Positions 1-21,811 of a stretch of 64,000 bases of DNA are shown here, piece after piece. The first letter of the stretch is position 1; the number at the start of each line of letters is the position of its first letter. The position numbers and the translations under genes were made by a program. Under the pieces are notes generated by a model. It had not been told where the DNA came from. It did not search any database and was given only the letters and a program-made list of their open reading frames with translations. Location of the stretch: assembly GCF_009914755.1 (NCBI RefSeq), contig NC_060933.1, one strand, 5' to 3'. Origin of the DNA: the human T2T-CHM13v2.0 reference genome, Homo sapiens.

Positions 1-3000
1 AAAGCCATTCCAAGAAGGATGGATACAAATAAACCCAGACAGTGAAGACTACAATAAATACCTAACTCTTCAATGCCCAGACACCAAAGAACATTTACAA
101 GCATCAACACCATCCAGGAAAACATGACCTTATGAGATGAACTAAATAAGAGACTAGGGACCAATCTTGGAGAAACAGATATGTGAATTTTCAGACAAAA
201 AATTCAAGTAGTGTTATGGATGAATCTCAAAGATAAATTCAAGATAACACAGAGAAGGAATTCAGAATTCTATTAGATAAATGTAACAAAGAGATTGAAA
301 TAGTTAAGCAGAATTAAGCAGAAATTCTGGAGCTAAACAATGCAACTGGCATGCTGAATAATGCTTCAGAATCCTTTAAGAGTAGAATGGATCAAGCAGA
401 AGAGAGAATTAGTGAGCTTGAAGATAAGCTATTGGAAAATACAGTCAGAGGAGACAAAAGGTAAAATAATAAAAATCAATGATGCACTCCTACAGGATCT
501 AGAAAATAGCCTCAAAAGGGCAAATCTGAATTATTGGCCTTAAAGAGGAGGTAGAGAAACAGATAGGGGTAGAAAGTTTATTCAGAGGGATAATATAGCA
601 GAGAACTTCCCAAACCTAGAGAAAGATATCAATATCAAAGTTCAACCTCAAAAAAGACTACCTCAAGGCATTTAATAATCAAACTCTCAAAGGTCAAGGA
701 TAAAGAAAGGATACTTAAAGCAGCAAGAGAAAAGAAACAAATAACATAAAATGGAGCTCCAGTATGTCTGGCAGCAGACTTTTCAGTGGAACCTTTACAT
801 GCCGGGAGAGAAAGTTATGACATATTTAAAGTGCTGAAGGAAACAAGACTTTCACCCTAGAATAGTATATTTGGTAAAAAATATCCTTCATACATGAAAG
901 AGAAATAAAGACATTTCCAGACAAACAAATGCTGAGGGATTACATCAACACCAGACCTGTCCTACAAGAAATGCCTAAGGGAGTACTTTAATCAGACAAA
1001 AAGAAGAACATTAATGAGCAATAAGTAATCACCTGAAGGTACAAAACTCACTGGGAATAGTAAGTACAGAGAAAAACAGAATATTATAACACTGTAACTG
1101 TGTAGAAAGACTAAATGATGAACCAATAAAAATAATAACTAGAACAACTTTTCAAGACAAAGTACAAAGGGTATCAATTAAAAAACCAAAAAGATTAAAA
1201 GAAGAGGAATGAAATTAAGGCATAGAAGTTTTACTAGTTTTCTTTTTGCTTGTTTGTTTATGTAAATAGTGCTGTTATCAGGTTAAAATAATAGGTTATA
1301 AGATAGTATTCACAAGCCTTATAATCACCTCAAACCAAAAAACACAATGAAGACACAAAAAATAAAAGGCAAGAAACTAAATTACATCACCACAGAAAAT
1401 CACCTTTACTAAAGGAAAACAGGAAGGAAAGAAAGAAAGAAGAGAAGACCACAAAACAACCAGAAAAAAAATCATAAAATGGCAGGAGTAAGTCCTTACT
1501 TATTAATAGTAACATTGAATGTAAATGGACTAAAGGTTTGAATCAAAAGACATAGAATAGCTGAATGATTGAAAAAACAAGACCCATTGATCTGTTCCCT
1601 ATGAGAAACACACTTCACCTATAAAAACACACACTGACTGAAAATAAAGGGATGGAAAAAGATATTCCATTTCAATGAAAACCAAAAAAGAGCAGGAGTC
1701 ACTATACTTATATTAGACAAAATAGATTTCAAGACCAAAACTATAAAAAGAGGACTATAAAAAGGAGAAGTCACTATACAATGATAAAGGGGTCAATTCA
1801 GCAAGGGGATATAACAATTTAAAATACATATGCACCCAACACAAGCACCCAGATATAGGAAGCAAATATTATTAAATCTAAAGAGAGAAATAGGCCCCAA
1901 TACAATAATATCTGGAGACTTTGATTCCCTACTTTCAGCATTGGACAGATCTTCCAGGTGGAAAATCATCAAGAAATATCCAACTTATTCTGCACTATAG
2001 ATCAAATGGATCTAATCGATATTTACAGAATATTGTATCCGATGGCTGCAAAATACAAATTCTTTTCCACAGCACATGGATCATTCTCAAGGATAGACCA
2101 TATGTTAGGTAACAAAACAAATCTTAAAACATTCAACAAAATTGAAGTAATATCAAGCGTCTTCTCTGGCCACAGTGGAAAGTAACTAGAAATTAATAAC
2201 AAGAGGAATTTTGGAAACTATACAAATACATGGAAATTCAACAATATGCTCCTGGATGACCAGTGGGACAATGAAGGAATTAAGAAGCAAAGTGAAAAAA
2301 TTTTTAAACAAATGATAATGGAAACACAACATACCCAAACCTATGGGATACAGCAAAAGCAGTACTAAAAGGGAAGTTTATGGCTGTAAGTGCCTATATC
2401 AAAAAAGAGGAAACATTTTAAACAAACAGTCTAGCAGTGAAACTTAAAGAACTAGAAAAGCAAGAGCAACCCAAACCAAACTGAAATTTAGTAGAAGAAA
2501 ATAAATAAAAAAGATCAGAGCAGAAATCGATGAAATTGAAATGAAAGAAACAATACAAAAGATCAATTAAACAAAACGTCAGTTTTTTGAAATGCTAAAC
2601 AAAATTGACAAACCTTTTGCCAGACTAACATGGACAAAAGAGAGAAGACCCAAATATATAAAATCAGAAATCAAAAAGGAGACATTACAAACTGATACTG
2701 CAGAAATTCAAAGGATCATTAGTGGCTACTATGAGCAACCATATGCCAATAAATTGGAAAATCTAGAAGAAATGGACAAATTTTTAGACACATAAAACCT
2801 ACCAAGATTGAACCAGGAAGAAATCCAAAACCTAAACAGGCCAATAACTATTAATGAGATTGAAGCCATAATAAAGTCTCCAGTAAAGACACGCCTGGGA
2901 CCCAATAGCTTCACTGATGAATTGTACCAAACATTTAAAGAAGAACTACTACCAATCCTACTCAAACTCTTCTGAAAAATATAGGAGGAGGGGACACTTC

Positions 3001-3683
3001 CAAACTCATTCTACAAGGCATTATTACCCTGATACCAAAACAAGACAGACAGAAAAAAAAGAAAGGAAAAAGAAAACTATATGCCAGAATCTCTGATGAA
3101 TATTGATGCAAACATCTTCAACAAAATACTAACACATCAAATTCAGCAATACATAAGGAAGATCATTCATCATGACCAAGTGGGATTTATCCCTGGGATG
3201 CAAGAATGGTTCAACATATGCAAATCAATCAATGTAATACATCCTATCAACAGAATGAAGGATAAAAAACATATGATCATTTCTATTGATACTGGAAAAG
3301 CATTTGATAAATTTCAATATCTCTTCATGATAAAAACCCTAAAAAATTGGGCAATGAAGAAACATACCTCAACATAATAAAAGCCATACATGACAGACCC
3401 ACAGCTAGTACTGTACTGAATGAGGAAAAACTGAAGGCCTTGATGGATGCCCACCATCACCACTGTTGCTTAACACTGTATTGGAAGTCATAGGTAGAGC
3501 AGTCAGACAACAGAAATACGTAAAGGGCATCCAAATTAGAAAGGAAGGAGTCAAATTATCCTTGTTTGCTGATGATATGATCTTATATTTGGAAAAACCT
3601 AAAGACTCCACAATAAAACTATTAGAAATTATAAATTTAGTAAAGTTGCAGGATGCAAACTCAACATACAAAAATCAGTAGCA
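1..3683 (+). mobile_element. Old LINE-1 (L1MA1/2-like), 5' portion: decayed ORF1 and ORF2 EN/RT region; continues upstream of window
   Basis: Degenerate ORF1 (ENFPNL, IIIKLSKVK, ADFSVE) and ORF2 peptides ([33 protein letters not shown]) with many stops/frameshifts; breaks at ...AAAAATCAGTAGCA (3670-3683) and resumes at ~9821. Confidence 0.93.
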
Positions 3684-4719
3684 GTTTCCGTCCAAGATGG
3701 CTGAATACAAAGAGCTCTGGTCTGCAGCTCTCAGCGTGATCGGTGCAGAAGATGGGTGATTTTGGCATTTCCAACTGAGGTACCTAGTTCATCTCATTGG
3801 GACTGGTTGGACACTGGGAGCAGCCCACAAGGGTGGGCCAAAGCAGGGCAGGGCATCACCTCACCTGGGAAATGCAAGGGGCCGGGATATTTCCCTTTCC
3901 TAGCCAAGGAAGCCGTGACAGACTGTACCTGGAAAAATGGGACACTTCTGCCCAAATACTGTGCTTTTCCCATGGTCTTAGCAACCAGCAGACCAGGAGA
4001 TTTTCTCCCATGCCTGGCTCGTCGGGTCCCATGCCCACAGAGCCTTGCTCACTGCTAGCACAGTAGTCTGAGATCAACTTGCGAGGCTGCAGCCTGGCTG
4101 GGGGAGGGGCATCCGCCATTGTTGATGCTTAAATAGGTGAACAAAATGGCCAGGAAGCTCAAACTGGGCAGAGCCCACCACAGCTCAGCAAGGCTTACTG
4201 CTTCTATAGACTCCACCTGTGTGGGCAGGGCATAGCTGAACAAAAGGCAGCGCAGAAACTTCTGTAGACTTAAATATCCCTGTCTGACAGCTCTAAAGAG
4301 GGCAGTGGTTCTCCCAGCACAGTGTTTGAGTTCTGAGAACAGAGAGACAGCCTCCTCAAGTGGGTCCCTGACCCCCGTCTAGCCTAACTGGGAGACACTT
4401 CCCAGCAGAGGCCTACAGACACATCATACAGGTGGGTGCCCCTCTGGGACAAAGCTTCCAGAGGAAGGATCAGGCAGCAATATTTGCTGTTCTGCAATAT
4501 TTGCTGTTCTGCAGCCTCTGCTGGTGATACCCAGGCAAACAGGGTCTGGAATGGACCTCCAGCACACTCCAAAAGACCTGCAGCTGAGGGACCTGACTGT
4601 TAGAAGAAAAACTAACAAATAGAAAGGAACAGCATCAACGTCAACAAAAAGGACATCTACACAAAACCCCATCTGTAGGTCACCAACATCAAAGACAAAA
4701 GGTAGATGGTACCACAAAG
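3684..4719. promoter_or_regulatory. L1 5'UTR internal sense and antisense promoter; retains the ~130-bp segment (approx. 4437-4566) that younger L1PA3/L1HS deleted to escape ZNF93
   Basis: YY1-type CAAGATGG near the 5' end; UTR length ~1035 nt; segment CCTCTGGGACAAAGCTTCCAGAGG...GGACCTCCAGCA present; CpGs largely decayed. Confidence 0.7.
3856..4119 (-). CDS. L1 antisense ORF0 homologue, open, 87 aa
   Basis: MADAPPPARLQPRKLISDYCASSEQGSVGMGP resembles the L1 ORF0 N-terminus (MAGAPPPASLPPCSLISDCCAS); ATG in strong Kozak context (ACAATGG); expression unknown. Confidence 0.7.
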   Translation of the reverse strand: MADAPPPARLQPRKLISDYCASSEQGSVGMGPDEPGMGENLLVCWLLRPWEKHSIWAEVSHFSRYSLSRLPWLGKGNIPAPCISQVR

Positions 4720-5742
4720 ATGGAGAAACCAGAGCAGAAAAGCCGAAAATTCTAAAAAACAGAGCGCCTCTTCTCCTCCAAAGGATTGCAGCTCCTCTCC
4801 AGCAACAGAACAAAGCTGGACAGAGAATGACTTTGATGAGTTGACAGAAGTATGCTTCAGAAGGTCAGCAATAACAAACTTCTCCGAGCTAAAGGAGCAT
4901 GTTCTAACCCATCGCAAGGAGGCTTAAAACCTTGCAAAAAGGTTAGACAAACAGCTAAATAGAATAAACAGAGTAAAGAAGACCTTAAATGACCTGGTGG
5001 AGCTGAAAACCATGGCACGAGAACTTTGGGACACATGCAGAAGTTTCAATAGCCGATTTGATGAAGTGGAAGAAAGGGTATCAGTGATTGAAGTTCAAAT
5101 TAATGAAATAAAGTGAGAAGACAAGTTTAGAGAAAAAAGAGTAAAAAGAAACAAACAAAGCCTTCAAGAAATATGGGACTATATGAAAAGACCAAATCTA
5201 CATTTGATTGGTGTATCTGAAAGTGATAGGGAGAATGGAACCCAGTTGGAAAACACTCTTCAGGATATTATCCAGGAGAACTTCCCCAATGTAACAAGGC
5301 AGGCCAACATTCAAATTCAGGAAATACAGAGAACACCACAAAGATACGCCTCGAGAAGAGCAACCCCAAGAACATAACTGTCAGATTCACCAAGGTTGAA
5401 ATGAAGGAAAAAATGTTAAGTGCAGCCAGAGAGAAAGGTTGGGTTACCCACAAAGGGAAACCCATCAGACTAACAGCAGATCTCTCAGCAGAAACCCTGC
5501 AAGCCAGAGGAGAGTGAGGGCCAATATTCAACATTCTTAAAGAAAAGAATTTTCAACCCAGAATTTCATATCCAGCCAAACTAAGCTTCATAAGTGAAGG
5601 AGAAATAAAATCCTTTACAGACAAGCAAATGCTGAGACATTTTGTCACCACCAGGCCTGCCTTACAAGAGCTCCTGAAGGAAGCACTAAACATGGAAAGG
5701 AACAATCGGTACCAGCCACTGCAAAAACATGCCAAATTGTAA
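4720..5742 (+). pseudogene. L1 ORF1p, disrupted
   Basis: Fragments NQSRKAENSK, TEQSWTENDFDEL, KRPNLHLIGV, ENFPN; frameshifts and stops near 4925, 5114 and 5375; ends GCCAAATTGTAA. Confidence 0.9.
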
Positions 5743-5805
5743 AGACCTTTGATGCTAGGAAGAAACTGCATCAATTAACAGACAAAATAACCAGCTAACA
5801 TCATA

Positions 5806-6513
5806 ATGACAGGATCAAATTCATACATAATAATATTAACCTTAAATGTAAATGGGCTAAATGCCCCAGTTAAAAGACACAGACTGGAAAATTGGATAAA
5901 GAGTCAAGACCCATTGGTGTGCTGTATTCAGGAAACCCATCTCACGTGCAGAGACACACATAGGCTCAAAATAAAGGGATGGAGGAAGATCTATCAAGCA
6001 AATGGAAAGCAAAAAAAAGCAGGGCTCACAATCCTAGTCTCTGATAAAACAGACTTTCAACCAACAAAGATCAAAAGAGACAAAGAAGGCCATTACATAA
6101 TGATAAAGGGATCAATTCAACAAGAAGAGCTAACTATCCTAAATATATATGCACCCAATACAGGAGCACCCAGATTCAGAAAGCAAGTCCTTAGAGACCT
6201 ACAAAGAGACTTAGACTCCCACACAATAATAATGGGAGACTTTAACACCCCACTGTCAATGTTAGACAGATCAACAAGACAGAAGTTTAACAAGGATATC
6301 CAGTACTTGAACTCAGCTCTGCACCAAGCGGACCTAATAGACATCTACAGAACTCTCCACCCCAAATCAACAAAATATACATTCTTCTCAGCACCACATC
6401 ACACTTATTCTAAAATTGACCACATAATTGGAAGTAAAGCACTCCTCAGCAAATGTAAAAGAACAGAAATCACAACAAACTGTCTCTCAGACCACAGTGC
6501 AATCAAATTATAA
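5806..6513 (+). CDS. L1 ORF2 APE-type endonuclease domain as a stand-alone open 235-aa frame (premature TAA at 6511-6513)
   Basis: N14, E43, Y115, D145, N147, T192, D205 and S228-D229-H230 all present at canonical positions; translation unknown. Confidence 0.75.
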   Translation: MTGSNSYIIILTLNVNGLNAPVKRHRLENWIKSQDPLVCCIQETHLTCRDTHRLKIKGWRKIYQANGKQKKAGLTILVSDKTDFQPTKIKRDKEGHYIMIKGSIQQEELTILNIYAPNTGAPRFRKQVLRDLQRDLDSHTIIMGDFNTPLSMLDRSTRQKFNKDIQYLNSALHQADLIDIYRTLHPKSTKYTFFSAPHHTYSKIDHIIGSKALLSKCKRTEITTNCLSDHSAIKL

Positions 6514-9613
<3,100 letters not shown>

Positions 9614-9820
9614 ACAATGAGAACAAGGCAGGGAACATCACACACCAGGGTCAGTTGGGGGTTGGGGGGCTGGGGTAGGGATAGCATTAGGAGAATTAGA
9701 AGAAATACCTAATGTAAATGATGAGTTGATGGGTGCAGCAAACAAACATGGCACATGTATACCTATGTAACAAACCTGCATGTTGTGCATATGTACCCTA
9801 GAACTTAAAGTATAAAAAAA

Positions 9821-11834
9821 GTAGTATTTCTGTATGCCAATAATGAAAAATCTAAAAAAGAAATAAAAAAGTAATCCCATTTATAATAGCCACACATGAA
9901 ATTAAATACCTAGGAATTAACTCAACTAGAGAAGTGAAAGATTTCTATATGCATACTATAAAACACTAATGAAAGAAATTGAAGAGGACACCCCAAAATG
10001 AAAAGTATTTCATGTTTATGAATTGTAAGAATAAATATGTTAAAATATCCATACTACCCAAAGCAGATTGCATCAAATCTATATCTATATATTTCAATTC
10101 TGTCAAAACACCAATGAAATTCCTCACAGAAATAGAAAAAAAAATCCTAAAATTTATAGAGAATCACAGAATATCTAGAATAGCATAAGCTATCCTAAGC
10201 AAAAAGAACAAAACTGGAGTTATCACACTACTTGACTTCAAATTATGCACAGTACCCAAACAACATGGTACCGGCATAAAAACAGACACATAGACCAACC
10301 AGTGGAATAGAATCCACACACCTATAGTGCACTCATTTTTGACAAATGTGCCAAGAACATACACTGGGGACAAGACAATCTCTTCAATAACAGAAAACTG
10401 GATATCCATTTGCAGAAGAATGAAACTGGTGCTGGGAAAACTGGATATCCATTTGCAGAAGAATGAAACTAGATCCCTATCTCTCATCAGGTACAACAAA
10501 ATCAAATGAAAATAGTTTAAAGACTTAAATCTAAGATCTCTAACTATGAAACTACTACATGAAAACATAAGGGAAAATCTCAAGGACATTGGTCTGGGCA
10601 AATATTTCTCAAGGAATACCCCACAAGCACATGCAACCAAAGCAAAAATGGAAAATAGGATCACATCAAATTGAAAAGCTTCTGCACAGCAAAGGAAACA
10701 ATCAACAATTTGAAGAGACAACCCACAGAATGGGAGACAATATTTGCAAACTATCCTTCTGACAAGGGCTTAATAGCCCATATATAAGGAGCTTAAACAA
10801 CTTTATAGGAAAAAATCTAATAATCCAGTCAAAAATGGGAAAAAGATTTGAATGGATATTTCTCAAAAGAAGACATACAAATGGCAAACAGGCATGTTAA
10901 AGGTGCTCAATATCATTGATCATCAGAGAAATGCAGATCAAAATTACAGTGAGATATCATCTCACCCCAGTTAAAATGGCTTATATCCAAAACACAGGCA
11001 ATAATGAATGCTGGTGAGGATGTGGAGAAAAGGGAACCCTTTTTCCACAACTCATTGTTGGTGAAAATGTAAATTAGTACAACTATTATAGAGAACAGTT
11101 TGGAGGTTCCTCAAAAAACTAAAAATTGAGCTATTATAATTCAGCAATCCCACTGCTGGGTGTATACCAAAGAAAGTTAGTGTATCAATGAGATAGCTGC
11201 ACTCCTGTGTTTGTTGCAGCACTGTTTACAATAGCTAAGATATGGAAGCAGCCTAAGTGTCCATCAACAGATGAATGGATAAAGAAAATGTGGTACATAT
11301 ACACAATGGAGTACTATTCAGCCATAAAAAAGAATGAGATCCAGTCATTTGCAACAACATGGATGGAACTGGAGATCAATGTATTTAGTGAAATAAGGGA
11401 GACACAGGACAAACATCTTATGTTCTCACTTATTTATAGGATCAAAAAATCAAAACAATTGAACTCATGGACATAGAGAATAGAAGGACAGCTACCAGAG
11501 CCTGGGAAGGGTAGTAGTGGTGGTGGAGGAGGTGGGGATAGTTAATTGGTGCAAAAGGTAGTTAGAAAGAATGAGTAAGACCTACTATGTAATAGCATAA
11601 TAGAGTGACTATAGTTAATAATAGCTTAATTGTACATTTTAAAATAACTTAAAGGGTGTAATTGGGTTGTTTGTAACTCAGAGGATAAATGCTTGAGAAG
11701 ATGGATACCCAATTCTCCGTGATGTGCTTATTTTACTTTGCATGCCTGTATTAAAACATCTCATATACCCCATAAATATATATACCTACTATATACCCAT
11801 AAAAATTAAAAATAAGAAAAAGAAAAAAAGAAAA
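9821..11834 (+). mobile_element. Old L1MA1/2-like element, 3' portion with 3'UTR and A-rich tail
   Basis: Resumes TTTCTGTATGCCAA; ORF2 C-terminal peptide FVAALFTIAKIWKQPKCPSTDEWIKK; L1MA-type 3' end GCATGCCTGTATTAAAACATCTCATATACCCCATAAATATATATACC plus A-tail. Confidence 0.92.
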
Positions 11835-12862
<1,028 letters not shown>

Positions 12863-13410
12863 TTATTTAATTTTTATTAATTAAAAGTTAAATAGCTTCA
12901 TATGTCTAGTGGCTACCATACTGGATAGTACAGATCTAGACCGATCAAACTTCAGATGGTTGGGATCAATCTGTACCATCCCTCCTAAGCTTCGTCTTCA
13001 AATGATCACTAATAACTCTTCTGAATTCTGTTTTGGATTTCAGTAAGTTATTCCAAAACCAAATGAAGCTCTAGTTTAATTAGACCGAAGTGTCAGTTGC
13101 ACAGGTGTGTGTGTGTGTATGTGTGTATTCAAAGTTTTCAATTTGCTCACATTTGTATTTCCTGTAATTGGTTCTATAAGAAGATAAGCATGTACCTATT
13201 CATTGCCAAACAACTTAAGATAAACACATACAAAAACAAACCTGAGAAATACAGAGCAATACATAATTATGTATCTGTCTTTAAAAGCTAAGAGACAGAA
13301 GGATAAAGATTGAGAATACTTCTTTCACTAACTCTAGCCACTGTTAGAGTGGCTTCCTAAAGAAGACGACAAGACACTTACGTTGCACTCTGTGCAAAAT
13401 TAGCCATTTC
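12863..13410. repeat. Left arm of old inverted duplication (partner 15975-16530); includes 5' part of MER33 on minus strand and (TG)n
   Basis: Exact reverse-complement blocks: 12905-12928/16479-16502, 13153-13168/16223-16238, 13203-13219/16171-16187, 13251-13272/16118-16139, 13319-13342/16044-16067, 13350-13366/16026-16042. Confidence 0.95.
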
Positions 13411-14920
13411 TCCTCTGAAGAGGGCCCAGCTTTTATATTAAAAAATAGCTTGGTTATTTTAAATACAGAATATTATAAAAAATATTCAGCAATCATCAGG
13501 TGGATATTCAGCAAATTATTAACTTCCAAGTATAGCATTTCAAATGTTTTATTGGTTAAATGATTATAATAATATCATCTTTTTAATTTAACTTCAAGTT
13601 TATTATGAGGATAAACATATCTGTAAATATTTCTGATGTTAAATGTGTAATGTAAGCACAGTATACTGTTTTAGGGATTACAACCTAGGAAGAAAATAAT
13701 ACAACAAACTACAAAGCAAAAATGTTTGGCTACCGGCTAAATTTTCAGAATTCTAGAGGAAAAGAAATGGAACTCAAAATAAAAAAGTTACCCTGCACAA
13801 GAAAGTATACAACAGTTTGAATGATCTAACAGACAAACGCCGCTTCCCCTAAACAATAAAAAAGCAACCTAGGTGTTAACGAAGTTCTGGCAGCTTGTCT
13901 GTGCAGGCTACTCAACAAGGCAGACAACCTTCAGAAGGAAGATACTCGCTGTCAGGTTCATCCAGCTATAATTGGAGTATATATTGACTTTCGTCAGTTT
14001 AGCAAAGAGAATATCAACTTACAAAGTGCTAGCTACGATGGAGATGCGATAACTGGAGATCATTGTTAAGATGTCTGCCACTTTCAAAAAGATTTGTCTT
14101 TAGAAGCTAATAGGAATTTTAAATTGCTACAGCAATTGCATGTCAACATGAGCTATTTATTGGCTGTTAACCATAAATGTATAATATATTAATGTGTTTG
14201 AATATACTCTTTCTGTCATTAAATTCAATTAAAATTGAATAATTATAAACATATAAGTCCCTAGAGCCTAAAATCACCAATTTTCAAGGAAAAAAAAGAA
14301 GATAAGAAATTATTCATATTCAATCACATTTTGCCATCAAATTTATTTTTCAGATGAAATATTTGCAACAAATAAAGACTTAAAATTGGGTGCCGTAATA
14401 GAATGATTAATAGATCCTTACTTCCAGATAAAATGATTAATGCTTCCATTATGTATATTATGTAGCGTTCGAGTTAAATATGTCAATATGTTATTGTATT
14501 CAGTGAATAGTTCAATTGATCTTTCCTCTCTTAAATTAAAGCAAATCATTTTATAAAGGAATATGTATTTCAGAAGTACATAGTTCCATAAATAATATGT
14601 TTGAAAGCATGAAATAGATAATGCCTTGGTTTGATAGACCCCAAAACTGAAACTGAAATTACAGTCATTTGGGATAACTAACCTATTGTTTTACATAGTT
14701 TTGTTTCAAGCTTACCAGTGAACAGAAAGAAAAAAAAACTAATCAAATTATTTTCAATGGGGCTACAAAGCATTGCATTGTAACCTGAAATCCAAAGCTT
14801 ACATTGGCTTGAAAATTTGACCAGGCTTACTTAGCTGAAAGAGTCCTTTTAGACTATAAACTTTTGCTAATTTTGTACCAGAAAAACTGGGTTCAAAGAT
14901 TTTATTCTTCATTCTCCTTT

Positions 14921-14922
14921 AA

Positions 14923-14970
<48 letters not shown>

Positions 14971-14972
14971 TT
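14921..14972. repeat. (AT)21 microsatellite within a perfect 52-bp palindrome AAATC(AT)21GATTT
   Basis: Direct reading. Confidence 0.95.
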
Positions 14973-15974
14973 TAAAATATTTTTTAAAAGAGTAATTCAG
15001 AAAAAGGATAAGGAAACTCAATTGTCCTGATCACGTAAGCAAAACTACTTTGAGATTAGCGTTTAGAACCACCCTTTTTCCCTCAATCTGGTTCCTAGTT
15101 CAGGAAAGGTCATTTTATATACCAGAATAAATGAAAAAAATTATTTCTGCCCTACTGCATTGGACTAGTGTCCTCACTAGGAGTTCATGAAACAGTTTCA
15201 ATAAAAATGCAATTACAATAAGGTATTTTAAATCATATTAATATGATTACCTTAGACTCACATTGAAAATACAGAGAATGTTTAATTTTTAGAAAATGTT
15301 AAACACTTTAGTTTAGTAAATCCTATCATGTTTTCCAGTAATGCTAAAAGGTGCACAATACTTTTTCATTTTAGGTGCCCTGTGACTAGAGACTTGGCAC
15401 TTGATGGCTGCAGGGGAATCACTAATGAGCTACAAAGCCTTTACACCTCTAGGTCAGGAGTTTGGCTTAGACCTAGGTTGGGAGTGACAGAAAGTCGTTA
15501 CCATCTCATGATAGTTCAGTGGTTTATATGAAGGAAATTCAGTGTTTCAGGCCACTTTCTAATGAACAAGCATCCACCTTACAAAAAGTCACCACTGCTT
15601 TTGAAAGTAATTGGCAACAACCTAGAGAATGAAAAATTTAACCAAGATTTGTGTTCCTTCCATGCTATGACTACCGTATTCAAGTAAGGAGTTTTTAATG
15701 GAAAAAGACACAGTACATTGCAGATATGCCTATGAAAAGTAAGGCTAGGGAAGAAAAGGGGGGGGAGAATAATGAAGAGAAAAGAGAGAGTCATCCAGAA
15801 TAGAGTAAATCAAAATGCAGTTAAGACATGTCATCAAAAACCTTTACTTACAGTTTATATAGCAAAGGTATTTAATTCAGAAAAGACATGCACCTATTAT
15901 GTTTCTCTTTAGTAAAATTTTAATAATTTTACCTGAGGCCTTTAGATTAGGGCATCAAAAAGATGATAAATGCC

Positions 15975-16530
15975 TGGAAATGGTGTTTCCTTAGCAGAGA
16001 GTTGTCACTACACATGTCGTTATTATCTTCTTTAGGAAGCCATAGTGGCTAGAGTTAGTGAAAGAAGGCTTCTCAATCTTCTTTCTTCCAAGTCTTTTAG
16101 TTTCTACAGACACAGACACATAATTATGTATTGCTCTGTTTTATTCAGGGTTGTTTTTGCATGTGTTTGCCTTAAGTTGTTTGGCAAGAAATAGGCACAG
16201 GTTTATTCTTCTTACAGCACTCATTACAGGAAATACAAGTCTGAGCAAATGAAAAACTTAGAATATGCACATAGACGCATGTGCGTGCACACACACACAC
16301 ACACACACACACACCTGTACCATTGATGTTTTCATTTAATGAAATCTGAGCTTTGTTTGGTTTTGAAATTATTTAATAAAATCTAAAATGTTACTAATGA
16401 TCTTTTGAAGACAGAAGCATAGGAAGGATGTGGCAGAGTGTTTCCAACCATCTGAGGTTTGATCAGTCAGGATCTGTGCTATCCAGTATGGTAGCCACTA
16501 GAAAAATGAGGCTATTTAAATTAAATTAGT
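15975..16530. repeat. Right arm of old inverted duplication; includes (CA)n at ~16288-16314
   Basis: Colinear reverse-complement match to 12863-13410; one 89-nt hand-aligned block gave 17 differences (~81% identity). Confidence 0.95.
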
Positions 16531-16663
16531 GAACACTTAATAAAATTGGAAATTAAGTTCCTGAGTTGCACTAGCCACATTTCAATTGTTCTGTAGCCAC
16601 ATGTGGATAGTATCTAAGTTATCTGAACATTTTTATCATCTCAGTAAGTTCTATTGAACAGTA
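16473..16663 (+). mobile_element. MER33/MER3-like hAT-Charlie DNA transposon
   Basis: CTGTGCTATCCAGTATGGTAGCCACTAG...GCACTAGCCACATTTCAA...GTAGCCACATGTGG...AAGTTCTATTGAACAG. Confidence 0.8.
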
Positions 16664-16979
16664 GGGCCCAGACCACCTTTTCATCCCTATGCTTAATGTT
16701 TTTATATTAAAATATAATATTTTATGTAATAATAAAAATCAAAAGAAATAATTGGAAAGTAATAGTGAAACCTAAGGAAAAACAATGAAAAAATGCATTG
16801 GAGTTGGAAGCTTATATAATGCATGGTCTATAATAATATCCCACTAATTATTATATTGAATGAATGCATTTTTCATTTTTTCAATTTAAGATACTTGAAG
16901 ATTTTGATTTTCAAGAGATACGAGAACTTGATGCCTTCTTTTTTCTTTACAAAGAAGATGATATTAATAATTTGTTATA

Positions 16980-17295
16980 GGCTGGCCCTGGTGGCTCACT
17001 CCTGTAATCCCAGCCCTTTAAAAGGCTGAGGTGGGAGGATCGCTTGAGGCCAGGTGTTCAAGACCACCCTGGGCAACATGGTGAGCCCCTCTCTCTAAAA
17101 AAAAGTAAAAAATTGGCTGGGCGTGTTGTTGTGCACCTGTAGTCCCAGCTACTCAGAAGGCTGAAGTGGTGGGAGGATTGCTTGAGCCCAGGAGGTGGAG
17201 GTTGCAGTCAGTGGTAACTGTGACACTGTACCCCAGCATAGGTGACAGAATGAGACTGTGTCTCAAAATAATAATAAAAATAAATAATAATAATA
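16980..17295 (+). mobile_element. AluJ-like SINE
   Basis: GGAGGATCGCTTGAGGCCAGG, GGAGGATTGCTTGAGCCCAGG, (TAA)n tail; probable TSD TAATAATTTG. Confidence 0.9.
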
Positions 17296-18552
17296 ATTTG
17301 GTGTTATTTTTATACCTTGAATTTACTTAATAGGAAGAAATATATCAATTAGAGGGTACTGGAATCCCTTGGACTTATTTTTTCTTTTTCAATGAATGAT
17401 ATGTTTGCCTGCACAAGCCCAAAACCATAAACCGATCTAGAAGATGAGGACACACAAATACTTCTCTAATATCCCAGAGGTGAAGTTCACCTGCATGTCA
17501 GATATTAGCACTGAGAGGGGATATTCCTATTTGGGAACATTTCTGTCTAAAATATTACCCTCTACATTATTTTATAAATGATGAACTAACTAAAGAAAAA
17601 GTTTCAGAATGTTGGTGGATGGGAAAGGAGCAACTGTTGACAAGTTTAATTTCATTTTAAGCCATTATCACAGGGGATATGTGTATACTATCTTAGAATC
17701 TGCCAATTTTTCAGCTTATTCATAACAGTCAAAGGAAAGATGTTATCTCTATGCTTATAGTGAAAAGCTTTGGAAGTCAGAAAGCAAATCTTTTATTAAA
17801 TTCTTGTCCAGGGTTCATCTGTCAGGTCTAGAAATGACTAGTTATTGTTACCGTGTACACCAAGATCATCTATGAGTGATATGGAAAAATGAAACATTTT
17901 AAAAGAATTCGAGAAGCAGTGGGTCCCTGTTCTTGCCTATCAATTTTGTAATGAAACAACAATTCCTTGTATTTACCTGGACAATTCTTCCAATGCAAGT
18001 CAGATCTATTTAAAGTAGCAGGTTTGTAGGAAAAGGGGTATCAGAGAAGCAGGTAAGATTACATGAAGAGTTAAAGAATAATGTTGCTGTAATGTTAACA
18101 ATCATATTTATAGGAATACAACCAGGGAAATTCTTCAACATATTGGTCAAAGATAAATTAATAAAATTTCCTGTTCAAATATACAGTTAGATTGCTCAAG
18201 TATACTGAGCATTGGAACTTTTTATAAAATGGATCCTTCGGAGTCTTAAATTAGTCTAATAATGGCTTAAAAAAGTGATTGAAATGCAGCAGCTTTGGTG
18301 TCCTGTTTTAACTTTAGTGAAAATACTAATTCTGGATGTTTATAAACAATTTCTACTTCTACTTTCTCTAGAGAATTTCACCCCCTGATACCCACATCAC
18401 AGGAGATAACACAAGAATTTATTTACAATAAATTCAAGTTTCCCTGAAAAATATGGTACGGTAACCTGAGAGAAGATTAACAGATTATTTTCTCATCCTA
18501 AGTGTCTGCTATTTTAGATATTGACCATATGAGAGAATGAGTTTTAAAAAAA

Positions 18553-18815
18553 CTTTTAATTTTTAATTTTTGTAGGTACATAGTAGGTGTATATATTTAT
18601 GGGATACATGAAATGTTGTGATACAGGCATGCAATGTGAAATAAACACATCATGGAGAATGGGATATTAATCCCCTCAAGCGTTTATCCTTTGTGTTACA
18701 AACAATCCAATAACAGTCCTTTAGTTATTTTTAAATGTACAATTATTATTAACTATAGTCACCGTGTTGTGCTATCAAATAATAGGTGTTATTTATTATA
18801 TTTTATTTTCGTACC
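18553..18815 (-). mobile_element. L1MA1/2-like 3'-end fragment
   Basis: TTTAATTTTTGTAGGTACATAGTAGGTGTATATATTTATGGG...ACAGGCATGCAATG; reverse-complement homologue of 11570-11820. Confidence 0.88.
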
Positions 18816-19329
18816 TAGAGTATTTTCTTACATGAATAAAAGATAATGATATTCCATACCATCTTGGGAATGGAATCCCTTGATCCCAGGTGCCTGTGGA
18901 AATGTTCACACTTTTCACGGGTGAGGATAAGTGAGGAAAGAATAAGAGCAGAAGGGCCCTAGAGGGAAACCTTAAAGAACCCGAGAGTAGAGAATGGATG
19001 GAAGTAGGTGATGTTGCTTTTTCTTCCTTCCTCACTGCTCTCCCTTCTGCAAAGGTGAATGTCTTCTTGCCTCAGCTTTATTTTTCAAATTGTAATCAAG
19101 ACCAAAACAAGTCAGACCATTGAGACTCATTTGTTTTCTTTCCGAGTGAAAGCAAACAGATCTAATTTCATTCTGAGACAAGGCAGGTGGGCTTAATAGA
19201 CAGTATGGGGGTGGGCAAAGAGGAGAAATGGTAACTGTGGGAAGACATCAGTTGTAATTTATCTTGACTTAGTAAGACTTTTCCTTTTTGCATGACATAC
19301 TGCTCAACAAATGGAGAGACACTCCAGTT

Positions 19330-19570
19330 AAGTAATTGCTCAGATTATTAGTGTGTTGTGCTGAAAAAGGACTCCTAAGCTGCATTAGCTTGGGTTGACA
19401 TCGCAGATGCTCATCTTCAAGGGGTCAGTACAAGAATGAATCTATTTAACATCTTCATCAATGATCAAGATAATGGAAAAGATACAGCAGGTCCATTAAT
19501 TAACATTAGGAAAGACATTATACTGCAAGGGTAGCTTGCACATTGTAGGGCAGTGTATGAATTTTAAATG
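19330..19570 (+). mobile_element. CR1/L3 LINE RT fragment
   Basis: CTATTTAACATCTTCATCAATGATCAAGATAATGGA encodes LFNIFINDQDNG, matching the CR1 RT motif LFNIFINDLD. Confidence 0.6.
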
Positions 19571-20155
19571 GCCTTTACCATGATAAAACACTTGTCCTTT
19601 GCATTCAAAATTTTAAAGGCTATTTTTGTTCATCCCTGCAGGCATGGCTAAGAAAACAAATAAGTGAACTCTTGCTACTGTGAATCTCTGTGTTCTATTT
19701 GCTAAAGCACAGGGCACTAGGACTGGAACAGCTTTAATTTAAATAGAACGATCCATTTTTTATAGCTGCAGCCCCAAATGATTTCCTCATTTCCCTATAT
19801 GTAACTCTTTCCCAGAATTTCAAGGCAATGGTGTAAGGCAGGGTCAGATACGTAACTTGAAGAGCCCACTGTGAAAAAAAGAAAAGCACTCTTTGTTCCT
19901 AAAGTAGAAACAACCACTAAAGCTACTAAGATATAAAGCTTTTTTCATTTCTTCATTGTTTCTCTATTAACTTGTTATGGTGTTTTTATTTACTATTTAA
20001 TATCATTCTAAGAAAAAAATTGACAATTTAAATTATTAGCATAAATTAATAATCACCTTTATATTGTGTATTGTCAGTTTTAAATGCACACAGGGGAACA
20101 TTTTACTCATATATGAAATCACCAAAATTACGCAATTCATATTTGGTAGCTCATA

Positions 20156-20422
20156 GTAAACTGGTACCAGTTGAGTCGGGGTGCTGCTAAAAAGATACTC
20201 GAAAATGTGGAAGCGACTTTGGAACTGGGTAACAGACAGAGGTTGGAAAAGTTTGGAGGGCTCAGAAGAGGACAAGAAAATGTTGGAAACTTTGGAACTC
20301 CCTAGAGACTTGTTGAATGGCTTTGCCCAAAATGCTAATAACGACATGGACAATAAAGTCCAGGCTGAGGTGGTCTCAGATGGAAATAAGAAACTCGTTG
20401 GGAACTGGAGCAAAGGTGACTT
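20156..20422 (+). mobile_element. THE1/MST-int (MaLR internal) 5' fragment without LTR
   Basis: GTAAACTGGTACCAG..GAAAATGTGGAAGCGACTTTGGAACTGGGTAACAG..GGAACTGGAGCAAAGGTGAC. Confidence 0.88.
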
Positions 20423-20689
20423 CGTTGATTTTGTGTAGAAAGTTTGATGCCTGCTTTTTTCACAGTAAAATGCTGACATAAAAAACAGCCATCCTAAAAG
20501 TTTCCATCTTAGGTGGGCAGCCATTTACCTTTTTCTGCCATCAAATTTTATGCATCAGTTGTACAAATTTAAATATCAGGCAGAAAAATATACATTGGTG
20601 TGGCTCACATTTACAACTTCTTAGTTAAATTTTTACCTTTACATTGCTCTTACTTAGCTCAATTTTAAAAATATAGTATTTTTGTTTAC

Positions 20690-21300
20690 TAGAGGAAATT
20701 GAAAATATAGAAACAATAAAATGAAGAAAGAATTATACACATTGAAGATAGTCAATGTAAATAGTTTTCCACTTCTTTTCTGGTCTTTTCTAAATGTACA
20801 ACTTTAAAAAATACTGGCAGATTCCAACCATATATAAAATTTTACATCTTGCTTTTTATGTAATATTATATTGCAAACATTTTTTTTCATGTTACATTCT
20901 GCCTGGACATTTTTATGGCTGCAGAGTGTATTACCACATGGATTTATTTAATGCTTACTCCATTTTTGGACACAATTTCATTTATAATAAATACTGTGAT
21001 GAACATCTTTTTGAATAAAACTTTTCTCATTTTTCAAGGTTATGTCCTTAGGATACATTCCCCGAAGAACATTACTGGGTAAAAGCATCTCAGACATTTT
21101 AAGTCTCTTGATTCTTGTTGACAAATTGCTTTCAAAGGAGACATACCAGTTTTTACTCCTGCTAGGGATTTACCACAATGCTTGTACTTCGTTAAATGTA
21201 GATTACTGTGATTAATGGTGATGGGCATTTTTATATGTGTTTGTTTTCTAATTCTAATTCCTCCATCGTGAAGTATGGTATCTCCTTCACGTCCTTTTGT
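20690..21300 (-). mobile_element. Ancient L1ME-like 3' fragments
   Basis: AATACTGTGATGAACATCTTT..CCTTAGGATACATTCC..ATTACTGGGT..CAAATTGCTTTCAAAGG. Confidence 0.55.
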
Positions 21301-21584
21301 AGACCACTCACTCTTACAGGCATGATCTCCTGGCAAAAGTATGGCAGAAGAAAACACTGAAACATTTCTACAGAGGTTGTATCATTTCTAATGTCTCCAC
21401 TTCCCTAGCCACCCTGCCTTTTAAAAATTGGGAGAAAATCAGAAAAAAGCTGATATCTCTTTTTTTCAAAGTTTATTTTTCTTGCAAAATAATATGCTTA
21501 TATTGCATAAACTAAACATTGCAAATAAAGCTAAAGCATCCCTTGACCAAGACCACAATGTTGCACAAATTCACAGACTATTTG

Positions 21585-21811
21585 TGACCAGCCTGGGCAA
21601 CATGGCAAAACCCCATCTCTACAAAAAGTAGCCAGGCTTGGTGGCACACGTCTGTAGTCCCAGCTACTTAGGAGGCTGAGGTGGGAGGATCACCCGAACC
21701 TGAGAGGTCAAGGGTGCAGTGAGCCCCGATCATACCATTGCACTCCCGCTTAGGTGACAGAGTGAAATCCTGTCTCCAAAAAAATAAATAAATAAATAAA
21801 AGAAAAAAAAA
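21585..21811 (+). mobile_element. 5'-truncated AluJ-like SINE
   Basis: GACCAGCCTGGGCAACATGGCAAAACCCC..GGAGGTCAAGG-type right arm, A-rich tail. Confidence 0.88.

What the first reader, a model, noticed from the sequence alone, without database searches (positions are those of the whole stretch)
12863..16530. Ancient ~550-bp inverted duplication of mostly unique DNA around a 2.6-kb spacer, possibly the centre of a larger hidden palindrome
Seen: 12863-13410 is the colinear reverse complement of 15975-16530, with six exact blocks of 16-24 bp, a shared (TG)n/(CA)n tract and a shared MER33 5' end. Hand alignment of one 89-nt block gives ~81% identity. Most of each arm is not a recognisable interspersed repeat, so repeat annotation would not explain it. 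Inference: the duplication post-dates MER33 insertion. The left arm is cut mid-MER33 by the L1 stack, so the mirror image of sequence right of 16530 may continue upstream of the window. Such arms could form a long intramolecular RNA duplex (ADAR editing, back-splicing or exon looping), support spacer inversion or gene conversion, or be a duplicated enhancer.
Basis: partly seen in the sequence, partly recalled or inferred. Interest (0 to 1): 0.8.

Follow-up and report, generated by a model that had tools for sequence, protein, structure and literature searches.

The report
Ancient small inverted duplication, L1-split
About 0.7 kb of non-coding human chromosome 9 DNA was copied in reverse orientation 2.5 kb away tens of millions of years ago and has since decayed much as unused DNA does, so it is a real but ordinary genomic fossil.

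Summary
The inverted repeat is real. 12863-13416 is the colinear reverse complement of 16543-15961 (437 matches, 97 mismatches, 69 gap columns; 81.8% identity). The Smith-Waterman score is 411, against at most 30 in 20 shuffles.

It is not a dispersed repeat. The arm interiors occur only twice in the whole genome, and the 2,544-bp spacer is unique.

Both arms contain one complete ~190-bp hAT-type MITE with its 8-bp target-site duplication, so the duplication came after that insertion.

The missing 166 bp lie at window coordinates -3847..-3682. They were separated by a 16.5-kb nest built on one antisense, 5'-truncated L1 with a 7-8 bp target-site duplication. Homology stops about 30 bp beyond the MITE, and no larger palindrome exists within the +/-60-100 kb searched.

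Whole arms are 81.6% identical (K2P 0.213). I found no RNA family, no coding potential and no strand-biased wobble substitutions.

Best reading: a one-off DNA-level fold-back or template-switch duplication that is now a neutral relic. Transcription and cross-species conservation could not be tested here. Interest is low.

The parts
1..12862 (-). The in-window part of a 16.5-kb insertion block that splits the left arm. The whole block runs from window coordinate -3680 to 12862 (chr9 = 23994000 + coordinate). It is built on one antisense, 5'-truncated L1 of about 2.2 kb, in pieces at -3671..-1930, 11831-12069 and 12400-12862, with a decayed T-rich tail at the left end. That L1 is interrupted by nested plus-strand L1s and Alus. 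OUTSIDE THE WINDOW, just left of the block, lie two further parts. (a) The L1 target-site duplication, left copy: TTATTTA at -3688..-3682, then G. (b) The outer piece of the left arm at -3847..-3682 (L013:6153-6318), which mirrors 16697-16536. It holds about 30 bp of unique flank, the MITE's TSD copy ATCTAGAT (-3821..-3814) and the outer ~130 bp of the MITE, starting CAGTACTGTCC at -3813.
   Evidence: The three L1 pieces are colinear on the minus strand against a plus-strand L1 in the window. L1 ORF1, endonuclease and reverse-transcriptase domains hit in 9 of 107 ORF pieces, all on the plus strand, at 3033-8058. The Alu-like repeat at 12046-12427 matches many places in the window. Outer arm piece: BLAST 16535-16689 vs -3680..-3837 on the minus strand, 81.0% over 158 columns, E 1.9e-33; alignments (MITE outer part 108 matches, 19 mismatches, 85.0%).
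12863..12869 (+). L1 target-site duplication, right copy: TTATTTA, then A. The left copy lies at -3688..-3682, outside the window.
   Evidence: Both copies align to the same 8 nt of the right arm, TTATTAAG at 16543-16536.
12863..13416 (+). Left arm, inner piece. It holds the inner ~64 bp of the MITE (to 12933, ending GGATAGTACAG), the MITE TSD copy ATCTAGAC (12934-12941), then about 480 bp of unique DNA with (TG)n at 13105-13126.
   Evidence: The interior 12990-13410 has only itself and the other arm in the genome; all 3 first-look candidates were scored and the third is a 38-nt match over the (TG)n tract.
13417..15960 (.). Spacer of 2,544 bp: unique, AT-rich (GC 31%) and with no internal mirror symmetry. 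It contains a perfect (AT)n microsatellite at 14918-14975.
   Evidence: The genome search gave only self, its own (AT)n and one 110-nt 76% match. The inner symmetry test scored 29, against a shuffle maximum of 39.
15961..16697 (-). Right arm, intact, 737 bp. It holds unique DNA at 15961-16473 with (CA)n at about 16265-16315, the complete MITE at about 16474-16665, and about 30 bp of outer flank.
   Evidence: For 15961-16470 the genome search found 2 candidates, both scored: self and the other arm.
16474..16665 (-). It has imperfect terminal inverted repeats and forms a hairpin.
   Evidence: The genome search gave 914 first-look candidates, of which 40 were scored. The 39 non-self matches are 70-85% identical and none reaches beyond query positions 39-230, which correspond to 16662-16471. 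DNA fold -22.6 kcal/mol, z = -3.13, with 0 of 200 shuffles folding as well.

Best explanation
This is a fossil of one DNA-level inverted duplication.

Sequence of events:
1. A stretch of about 0.72-0.74 kb of unique, AT-rich intergenic DNA already carried a complete ~190-bp hAT-type MITE, with its 8-bp target-site duplication, and a (TG)n tract.
2. That stretch was copied in reverse orientation 2.54 kb from its source. The most likely route is fold-back priming or short-range template switching during break repair or replication.
3. The two arms then drifted apart to 81.6% identity.
4. Later a 5'-truncated L1 inserted by target-primed reverse transcription into the MITE of the left arm, leaving a 7-8 bp target-site duplication.
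5. Further L1s and Alus nested into that L1. The outer 166 bp of the left arm now lie 16.5 kb away, 3.7 kb upstream of the window.

Today the structure most probably does nothing. It lies in a stretch with no annotated gene and shows no sign of selection on pairing. Its arms share at most 24 identical bases in a row, too few for efficient homologous exchange.

Shown: the anatomy, the two-copy status, and the order MITE, then duplication, then L1, then nested insertions.
Inferred: the copying mechanism, neutrality, and an age of roughly 40-70 Myr. The age takes 0.107 substitutions per site per arm at 1.5-2.5e-9 per site per year; that rate is recalled, not taken from a call.
For: Arms:
- 559 matches, 126 mismatches (71 transitions, 55 transversions) and 71 gap columns over the whole arms; 81.6% identity, K2P 0.213.
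- Significance: E 4.6e-102; Smith-Waterman 411 against at most 30 in 20 shuffles.

Not a repeat family:
- Left-arm interior: 3 of 3 candidates scored, giving self, the other arm and a 38-nt match over the (TG)n tract.
- Right-arm interior: 2 of 2 candidates, self and the other arm.
- The spacer is unique.

The MITE pre-dates the duplication:
- Family copies elsewhere cover only 16471-16662 (39 of 39 scored non-self matches).
- Arm homology runs about 30 bp further out and about 510 bp further in.
- The left arm keeps both TSD copies, ATCTAGAT and ATCTAGAC.

The L1 insertion is later:
- The two left-arm pieces overlap by 8 nt on the right arm, which is the TSD.
- The block ends are the 3' end and the truncated 5' end of one colinear antisense L1.
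- The L1's star-branch divergence is 0.139, against 0.107 per arm. Both are of similar age.

No retrocopy marks: no poly(A) and no flanking direct repeat longer than 8 bp.

Neutral look:
- 36 vs 35 transitions compatible with G:U pairing on the plus vs minus strand RNA.
- 0 of 4 Rfam matches reach their gathering score.
- 0 of 14 ORF pieces match Pfam.

The 2.54-kb spacer lies within the 766-70,466 bp range (median 3,428 bp) of sequenced human fold-back inverted duplications (PMC3907307, passages read).
Against: - The mechanism is not shown. The junctions are blurred by about 18% divergence, so microhomology cannot be read, and no outgroup genome was available to say which arm is the copy.
- The arms (0.107 per arm) look slightly less diverged than the L1 that inserted into one of them afterwards (0.139). 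This could mean early arm-to-arm gene conversion or some constraint. However, the L1 figure is inflated by source-gene heterogeneity; the other six copies gave 0.093-0.135.
- Differences are mildly clustered. There are 7 exact runs of 16 nt or more against 2.88 expected (P = 0.006). The longest run (24 vs 22.9, P = 0.38) and the window dispersion (P = 0.18) are ordinary.
- One outer-flank test scored 30 against a shuffle maximum of 27, so the outer edge may extend a few tens of bases further.
- The genome search works by shared words. It did not list the left-arm MITE piece among the 40 scored matches, so 'two copies only' is a lower bound.
- Absence of transcription rests only on the gene table sent with the finding.
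Confidence: 0.75

Rival explanations
1. Remnant of a once larger palindrome whose outer parts were deleted or have decayed beyond detection.
For: The outer edge lies only about 30 bp beyond the MITE and is fuzzy. One outer-flank test was marginally above the shuffles (30 vs a maximum of 27). The left flank was disturbed by a 16.5-kb insertion nest.
Against: The L1 insertion has a clean TSD, and the arm resumes exactly on its far side, so nothing was lost there. The right flank 16698-24000 has no low-copy inverted match in +/-100 kb. The left flank -60000..-3848 has none to the right of 16698; none of its 13 low-copy matches goes there. Identity is about 85% in the MITE right up to the edge and then drops to background, which is not a gradual decay.
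Confidence: 0.07
2. A functional inverted repeat: transcribed as one RNA that forms a long imperfect hairpin (an ADAR, Dicer or MDA5 substrate, or an aid to back-splicing), or a duplicated enhancer retained by selection.
For: Cofolding the two arms as RNA gives -588.6 kcal/mol, against -262 to -274 with a shuffled arm (5 shuffles). 446 of 547 left-arm bases pair with the other arm. The 547-bp inner part of the repeat is still only 2.5 kb from its partner. There is a slight excess of long exact runs, and the arms are slightly less diverged than the later L1.
Against: No gene is annotated in the window (gene table sent with the finding). No Rfam family reaches threshold. Transitions compatible with wobble pairing are 36 vs 35 on the two strands, and 55 of 126 mismatches are transversions that break pairing on either strand. 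There are 71 gap columns. The outer part of one arm was removed 16.5 kb away without visible consequence.
Confidence: 0.05
3. RNA-mediated copy: a local transcript was reverse-transcribed and inserted by L1 machinery (a class 1 templated sequence insertion), or was joined to the adjacent L1 by template switching of the reverse transcriptase.
For: The left arm abuts the 5'-truncated end of an L1 at 12862. Such insertions are known in humans (PMC5110952, abstract read).
Against: The arm continues on the far, poly(A)-tail side of that L1 with a TSD. The L1 therefore inserted into an arm that already existed, which excludes the chimaera. Neither arm has an A-rich tail or a flanking direct repeat; the best are 8 bp (ATTTTAAA) around the left arm and 7 bp around the right arm, in AT-rich DNA. 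A source only 2.5 kb from a random retro-insertion site would be a coincidence.
Confidence: 0.04
4. Two independent insertions of one dispersed transposon family, or a single transposon with long terminal inverted repeats spanning -3847..16697.
For: Both arms contain a hAT-type MITE end, and the outer arm edges lie near MITE termini.
Against: The arm interiors and the spacer have no other copy in the genome. Homology crosses both MITE termini into flanking DNA and includes the MITE's own TSD. A (TG)n tract sits at the same position in both arms. Arm identity outside the MITE is 81.5%.
Confidence: 0.02
5. A by-product of aberrant hAT transposition (alternative or reversed-ends transposition of the MITE) that duplicated flanking DNA in inverted orientation.
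For: A hairpin-forming hAT MITE (z = -3.13) lies within about 30 bp of the outer end of the duplicated segment.
Against: Such events put breakpoints exactly at element termini (general knowledge, recalled). Here both termini and both TSD copies are intact inside each arm, and homology extends beyond them on both sides.
Confidence: 0.03

Closest known systems
Fold-back inverted duplications with a single-copy spacer (Hermetz et al. 2014, PMC3907307; passages read)
   Same: The architecture is source, single-copy spacer, then inverted copy. The 2,544-bp spacer falls within the reported range of 766-70,466 bp (median 3,428 bp).
   Different: The reported cases are megabase-scale, terminal, pathogenic and linked to deletions or dicentric chromosomes. 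This one is 0.7 kb, interstitial, ancient and fixed. The 2-8 bp inverted microhomology seen at their junctions cannot be read here.
Short-range replication template switches in great-ape genomes (Walker et al. 2021, PMC7954356; abstract and section headings read)
   Same: A nearby template is copied in reverse orientation in a single event. A section heading reports enrichment for AT-rich sequence, and this locus has 31-36% GC.
   Different: The paper describes small mutation clusters. A 0.7-kb copy placed 2.5 kb away is much larger than my recollection of those events; the sizes were not read.
Class 2 templated sequence insertions: a DNA patch inserted at a double-strand break (Onozawa and Aplan 2016, PMC5110952; abstract read)
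   Same: A stretch templated elsewhere in the genome is inserted without L1 hallmarks.
   Different: Those are described as coming from distant regions and as polymorphic. Here the source is 2.5 kb away and the copy is old.
Large sex-chromosome palindromes kept alike by gene conversion (PMC8327919 and PMC8981503; search listing and abstracts)
   Same: Two inverted arms surround a unique spacer.
   Different: Those arms are kilobases to megabases long, more than 99% identical, and carry testis-expressed genes. These arms are 0.7 kb, 81.6% identical and gene-free.
Inverted Alu pairs as editing substrates (general knowledge, recalled; context from abstracts)
   Same: Imperfect inverted repeats of a few hundred bases, a few kb apart, at roughly 80% identity could form dsRNA if co-transcribed.
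   Different: There is no evidence that this locus is transcribed, and the arms are unique DNA rather than Alu.

Membership tests
Local inverted segmental duplication (inverted repeat with spacer) | Two colinear reverse-complement arms, far above chance | tested here: met
   E 4.6e-102; Smith-Waterman 411 against at most 30 in 20 shuffles; 81.6% identity over 685 ungapped columns.
Local inverted segmental duplication (inverted repeat with spacer) | Arms are not copies of an interspersed repeat family | tested here: met
   Only self and the partner arm were found for both arm interiors. Caveat: the search is word-based and no Dfam library was available.
Local inverted segmental duplication (inverted repeat with spacer) | Arms share earlier insertions together with their flanks | tested here: met
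   A complete MITE, both copies of its 8-bp TSD, and a (TG)n tract at the same position in both arms.
Gene-conversion-maintained palindromes (sex-chromosome type) | Arm-to-arm identity above 99% and long arms | tested here: not met
   81.6% identity, arms of about 0.73 kb, longest identical run 24 bp.
Gene-conversion-maintained palindromes (sex-chromosome type) | Genes in the arms or spacer | tested here: not met
   No annotated gene (table sent with the finding). 0 of 14 ORF pieces of 50 aa or more match Pfam.
Independent insertions of one transposon family (MER33/Charlie-type) | Homology limited to the element and ending at its termini | tested here: not met
   Family copies cover 16471-16662 only. 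Arm homology runs about 30 bp beyond one end and about 510 bp beyond the other.
hAT-type MITE (the element inside the arms) | 8-bp target-site duplication, short terminal inverted repeats, many dispersed copies | tested here: met
   The TSD copies ATCTAGAT and ATCTAGAC agree at 7 of 8 positions. The termini CAGTACTGTCC... and ...GGATAGTACAG are 12 of 16 complementary by eye, read. There are 914 first-look candidates in the genome. The name MER33 was not tested.
L1 insertion by target-primed reverse transcription (the event that split the left arm) | Target-site duplication, 3' A-rich tail, 5' truncation, T-rich nick site | tested here: met
   The TSD TTATTTA(G/A) lies at -3688..-3681 and 12863-12870. 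The block's left end is the L1 3' end with a decayed T-rich tail on the plus strand, and its right end is mid-ORF2. The pieces are colinear. The site reads TTATTT|AA.
L1-mediated retrocopy of the arm (class 1 templated insertion) | Poly(A) tail and TSD flanking the copy | tested here: not met
   Neither arm has an A-rich tail. Only 7-8 bp chance-level direct repeats occur, in AT-rich flanks.
Fold-back / template-switch inverted duplication | Single-copy spacer of about 1 kb to tens of kb between source and inverted copy | tested here: met
   The spacer is 2,544 bp and unique; the reported range is in PMC3907307.
Fold-back / template-switch inverted duplication | Inverted microhomology at the spacer/duplication junction | tested here: inconclusive
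   The inner arm ends fade over about 50 bp (13366-13416 / 16026-15961), so the junction cannot be placed to the base.
dsRNA-forming inverted repeat (ADAR/Dicer substrate) | Arms can pair as RNA | tested here: met
   Cofold energy -588.6 against about -268 kcal/mol with a shuffled arm; 446 of 547 bases paired between the arms.
dsRNA-forming inverted repeat (ADAR/Dicer substrate) | Both arms lie in one transcript, with A-to-I editing or small RNAs observed | not testable with these tools
   No expression or editing data are on hand, and no gene is annotated in the window.

The most novel reading that the evidence does not exclude
The two arms are co-transcribed in some tissue as part of an unannotated non-coding RNA. 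They would then form a ~550-bp imperfect hairpin of non-Alu origin that is edited by ADAR or sensed as dsRNA. Its slightly lower divergence than the L1 that later inserted into it, and its excess of long exact runs, would reflect weak selection or early arm-to-arm gene conversion.
Probability: 0.04. Interest if true: 0.45.

Novelty: new member of a known kind. Interest (0 to 1): 0.15.

Why it matters
It matters little biologically. It is one more small, old, probably neutral inverted duplication in a gene-poor, AT-rich stretch of 9p.

It has some value as a worked example:
- Three dated layers can be read from sequence alone: MITE insertion, then inverted duplication, then L1 insertion with later nesting.
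- Two look-alike outer 'arms' turn out to be unrelated dispersed repeats: the L1 3' ends at 11570-11813 / 18559-18797, and the Alu pair at 12164-12388 / 16976-17204. This shows how easily a larger palindrome can be over-read.
- If outgroup genomes fix the breakpoints, the locus could serve as a clean natural example of a sub-kilobase fold-back or template-switch duplication ending next to a hairpin-forming MITE.

Tried and rejected
1. Further-out arm segments:
- 11570-11813 vs 18797-18559 (82%) looked like an outer arm, but both are L1 3' ends with other copies nearby.
- 12164-12388 vs 17204-16976 (74%) are Alu-like repeats that match other copies better, up to 82%.

2. L1 chimaera (arm joined to the L1 5' end by reverse-transcriptase template switching): rejected, because the arm resumes beyond the L1's 3' end with a TSD.

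3. Larger palindrome:
- Of four flank or spacer tests, three were at shuffle level and one was marginal at 30 vs a maximum of 27.
- No low-copy inverted matches were found.

4. Retrocopy marks: none.

5. Rfam over 12500-17000: 4 matches at E up to 1, none reaching its gathering score, three of them on the (CA)n tract.

6. Pfam on 14 stop-to-stop ORFs of 50 aa or more in 12863-16700: 0 hits.

7. The first genome search with 16544-18558 was swamped by the Alu (7,603 candidates, 40 scored) and said nothing about the flank. The local 264-kb BLAST was used instead.

8. The first column shuffle for exact runs was unfair because the gap columns are clumped. It was redone with each gap counted as one event.

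10. Warburton et al. 2004, on human inverted repeats, is not held. Only its title was seen in a reference list, so no genome-wide frequency of comparable repeats is given.

The time between MITE insertion and duplication was therefore not computed.

12. No specific search was made for prior description of this locus, so its absence from print is not claimed.
Full report
**1.

The repeat finder found a chain of inverted segments on one anti-diagonal between 12885-13366 and 16026-16522. They are 109 nt at 84%, 96 nt at 76%, 73 nt at 82%, 95 nt at 86%, 45 nt at 89% and 17 nt at 100%.

BLAST of 11000-19000 against the window joined them into one minus-strand match, 12863-13366 vs 16543-16026, with E 4.6e-102. 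A gapped local alignment runs 12863-13416 vs 16543-15961 with 437 matches, 97 mismatches and 69 gap columns, which is 81.8% identity over ungapped columns. Its Smith-Waterman score is 411, against a mean of 21.7 and a maximum of 30 for 20 block shuffles.

Seven exact blocks of 16-24 nt are present. The (TG)n/(CA)n tract sits at the same place in both arms.

**2. It is not a dispersed repeat**

Both arm interiors were searched against the whole 3.1-Gb assembly that holds the window.
- The left-arm interior (12990-13410) found three candidates, all scored: itself, the right arm, and a 38-nt match over the (TG)n tract.
- The right-arm interior (15961-16470) found two candidates, both scored: itself and the left arm.
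- The 2,544-bp spacer found itself, its own (AT)n tract and one 110-nt 76% match.

The search works by shared words and is not exhaustive. In one search it did not list the left-arm MITE piece among the 40 scored matches, so these counts are lower bounds. It did find the partner arm at 73-74% identity both times.

**3. The transposon inside the arms**

The outer part of each arm is a short hAT-type element. Searching 16470-16700 gave 914 first-look candidates, of which 40 were scored. The 39 non-self matches are 70-85% identical, and none extends beyond query positions 39-230, which correspond to 16662-16471. The element folds as a hairpin (DNA, -22.6 kcal/mol, z = -3.13, 0 of 200 shuffles as good).

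In the left arm the element starts CAGTACTGTCC and ends GGATAGTACAG. It is flanked by ATCTAGAT and ATCTAGAC, an 8-bp target-site duplication of the hAT type. Arm homology crosses both termini, about 30 bp outward and about 510 bp inward. The name MER33 could not be checked, because no repeat library is on hand.

**4. The left arm does continue upstream, but not far**

I fetched 100 kb on each side of the window and ran BLAST locally. The rest of the right-arm element, 16535-16689, matches the minus strand at window coordinates -3680..-3837 with 81.0% identity over 158 columns and E 1.9e-33 (alignment).

The upstream piece ends in TTATTTAG at -3688..-3681. The piece inside the window starts TTATTTAA at 12863-12870. 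Both align to the same eight bases of the right arm, TTATTAAG at 16543-16536. This is a 7-8 bp target-site duplication around a 16.5-kb insertion block.

The block's left end (-3671..-1930) is the 3' end of an L1 in antisense orientation. Its right end (11831-12069 and 12400-12862) is the same L1 further towards its 5' side. The three pieces are colinear against a plus-strand L1 of the window. The element stops mid-ORF2 at 12862, so it is a 5'-truncated L1 of about 2.2 kb.

Between the pieces lie nested plus-strand L1s and Alu-like repeats. Nine of 107 ORF pieces hit ORF1, endonuclease or reverse-transcriptase domains, all on the plus strand at 3033-8058; the Alu-like repeats appear. So the left arm was split by an ordinary L1 insertion that later became a landing pad for more insertions.

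**5. There is no larger palindrome**

- Beyond about -3847 and 16697 the alignment falls to background.
- Of three outer-flank tests and one spacer test against shuffles, three were at shuffle level (26 vs max 30; 29 vs max 34; 29 vs max 39). One was marginal (30 vs max 27).
- The right flank 16698-24000 has no low-copy inverted partner anywhere in the 264 kb.
- The left flank -60000..-3848 has 13 low-copy matches, none to the right of 16698.
- Two pairs that mimic outer arms are dispersed repeats: the L1 3' ends at 11570-11813 / 18559-18797 (82%), and the Alu-like repeats at 12164-12388 / 16976-17204 (74%, lower than their matches to other copies).

**6. Whole-arm statistics and dating**

Summed over four separately aligned parts, the arms show 559 matches, 71 transitions, 55 transversions and 71 gap columns. 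That is 81.6% identity and K2P 0.213, or about 0.107 per arm. Identity is 85% within the MITE and 81.5% in the unique part.

For the L1 that split the arm, I compared its 3' 891 bases with six genomic copies. The best 39 scored copies were 73-78% identical to it, and six of them were fetched. A star-tree estimate from pairwise distances gives a branch of 0.139 for this copy and 0.093-0.135 for the other six.

The L1 must be younger than the duplication, yet it looks slightly older. This estimate is inflated by differences among L1 source genes, so I read the two events as close in time. A period of early arm-to-arm gene conversion, or weak constraint, is not excluded.

At 1.5-2.5e-9 substitutions per site per year (a recalled rate), 0.107 corresponds to roughly 40-70 Myr.

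**7. Signs of function were looked for and not found**

- No gene is annotated in the window (table sent with the finding).
- Rfam gave four matches at E up to 1, none reaching its gathering score, three of them on the (CA)n tract.
- None of 14 ORF pieces of 50 aa or more matched Pfam.
- As RNA the arms would pair well in silico: -588.6 kcal/mol against -262 to -274 with a shuffled arm, with 446 of 547 bases paired between arms.
- The substitutions do not preserve pairing. Transitions compatible with G:U pairs number 36 on one strand and 35 on the other, and 55 of 126 mismatches are transversions.
- Differences are mildly clustered: 7 exact runs of 16 nt or more against 2.88 expected, P = 0.006. 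The longest run (P = 0.38) and the window dispersion (P = 0.18) are ordinary. I leave this small heterogeneity unexplained.
- With at most 24 identical bases in a row, present-day homologous exchange between the arms (spacer inversion, gene conversion) should be very rare. This is general knowledge, recalled.

**8. Mechanism**

No poly(A) tail and no convincing direct repeat flank either arm. The arm also pre-dates the adjacent L1. An RNA-mediated copy is therefore unlikely.

Breakpoints do not coincide with MITE termini, which argues against aberrant hAT transposition.

The architecture of source, 2.5-kb single-copy spacer and inverted copy is that of fold-back or template-switch events. In 21 sequenced human fold-back inverted duplications the spacers were 766-70,466 bp, with a median of 3,428 bp (PMC3907307, passages read). 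Short-range template switches are described as widespread in great-ape genomes and linked to AT-rich sequence (PMC7954356, abstract and headings). This locus has 31-36% GC.

I therefore favour a single DNA-level event: a 3' end at a break or stalled fork annealed back about 2.5 kb away, copied about 0.73 kb of the opposite strand, and was rejoined. The end of copying lies about 30 bp beyond a hairpin-forming MITE, which may or may not be a coincidence. This step is inferred. The junctions are too decayed to show microhomology, and without outgroup genomes I cannot say which arm is the copy.

**9. Verdict**

It is an ordinary, probably neutral relic of a known kind of rearrangement. The idea of a large hidden palindrome is not borne out, and the functional ideas have no support so far, although transcription, editing and cross-species conservation remain untested here.

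Noticed in passing
window 4200-11830 (+): A long plus-strand L1 with recognisable but broken ORF1 (5117-5739), endonuclease (5791-6510) and reverse-transcriptase (7336-8058) domains, and a poly(A) end at 11813-11830. Its 3' part is present twice: 8068-8505 ~ 9875-10312 and 8599-9537 ~ 10427-11373, at 65-71%. So two L1 3' portions lie in tandem, or one is nested in the other.
   Followed up: partly
window 14918-14975: A perfect (AT)n microsatellite of about 58 bp, self-complementary, inside the spacer and about 250 bp from its geometric centre. It has no evident link to the duplication.
   Followed up: no
window 12164-12388 and 16976-17204: An inverted pair of Alu-like repeats (74% to each other) brackets the duplication 4.6 kb apart. 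If the region were ever transcribed, these would be as good a dsRNA source as the unique arms.
   Followed up: no
upstream of window, -47037..-46629 and -41521..-41113 (L009): A direct pair of 413 bp at 80% identity, 5.5 kb apart, with no other copy in the 264 kb examined. It is either a low-copy repeat or a small direct duplication.
   Followed up: no
window 20153-20422 and downstream 92229-92495 (outside the window, L017): A direct pair of 271 columns at 87% identity, 72 kb apart, with no other copy in the 264 kb. It is probably a young interspersed repeat and was not identified.
   Followed up: no
window 15170-15257 (-): A weak full-length match to the plant C/D-box family snoR20a (34.9 bits, gathering score 42, E 0.006) inside the spacer. 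It is below threshold and most likely chance.
   Followed up: no
window 13260-13275: The 16-nt perfect palindrome ATACATAATTATGTAT lies within the best-preserved 22-nt block of the arms. The right arm has one change. A run of this length is expected by chance.
   Followed up: no
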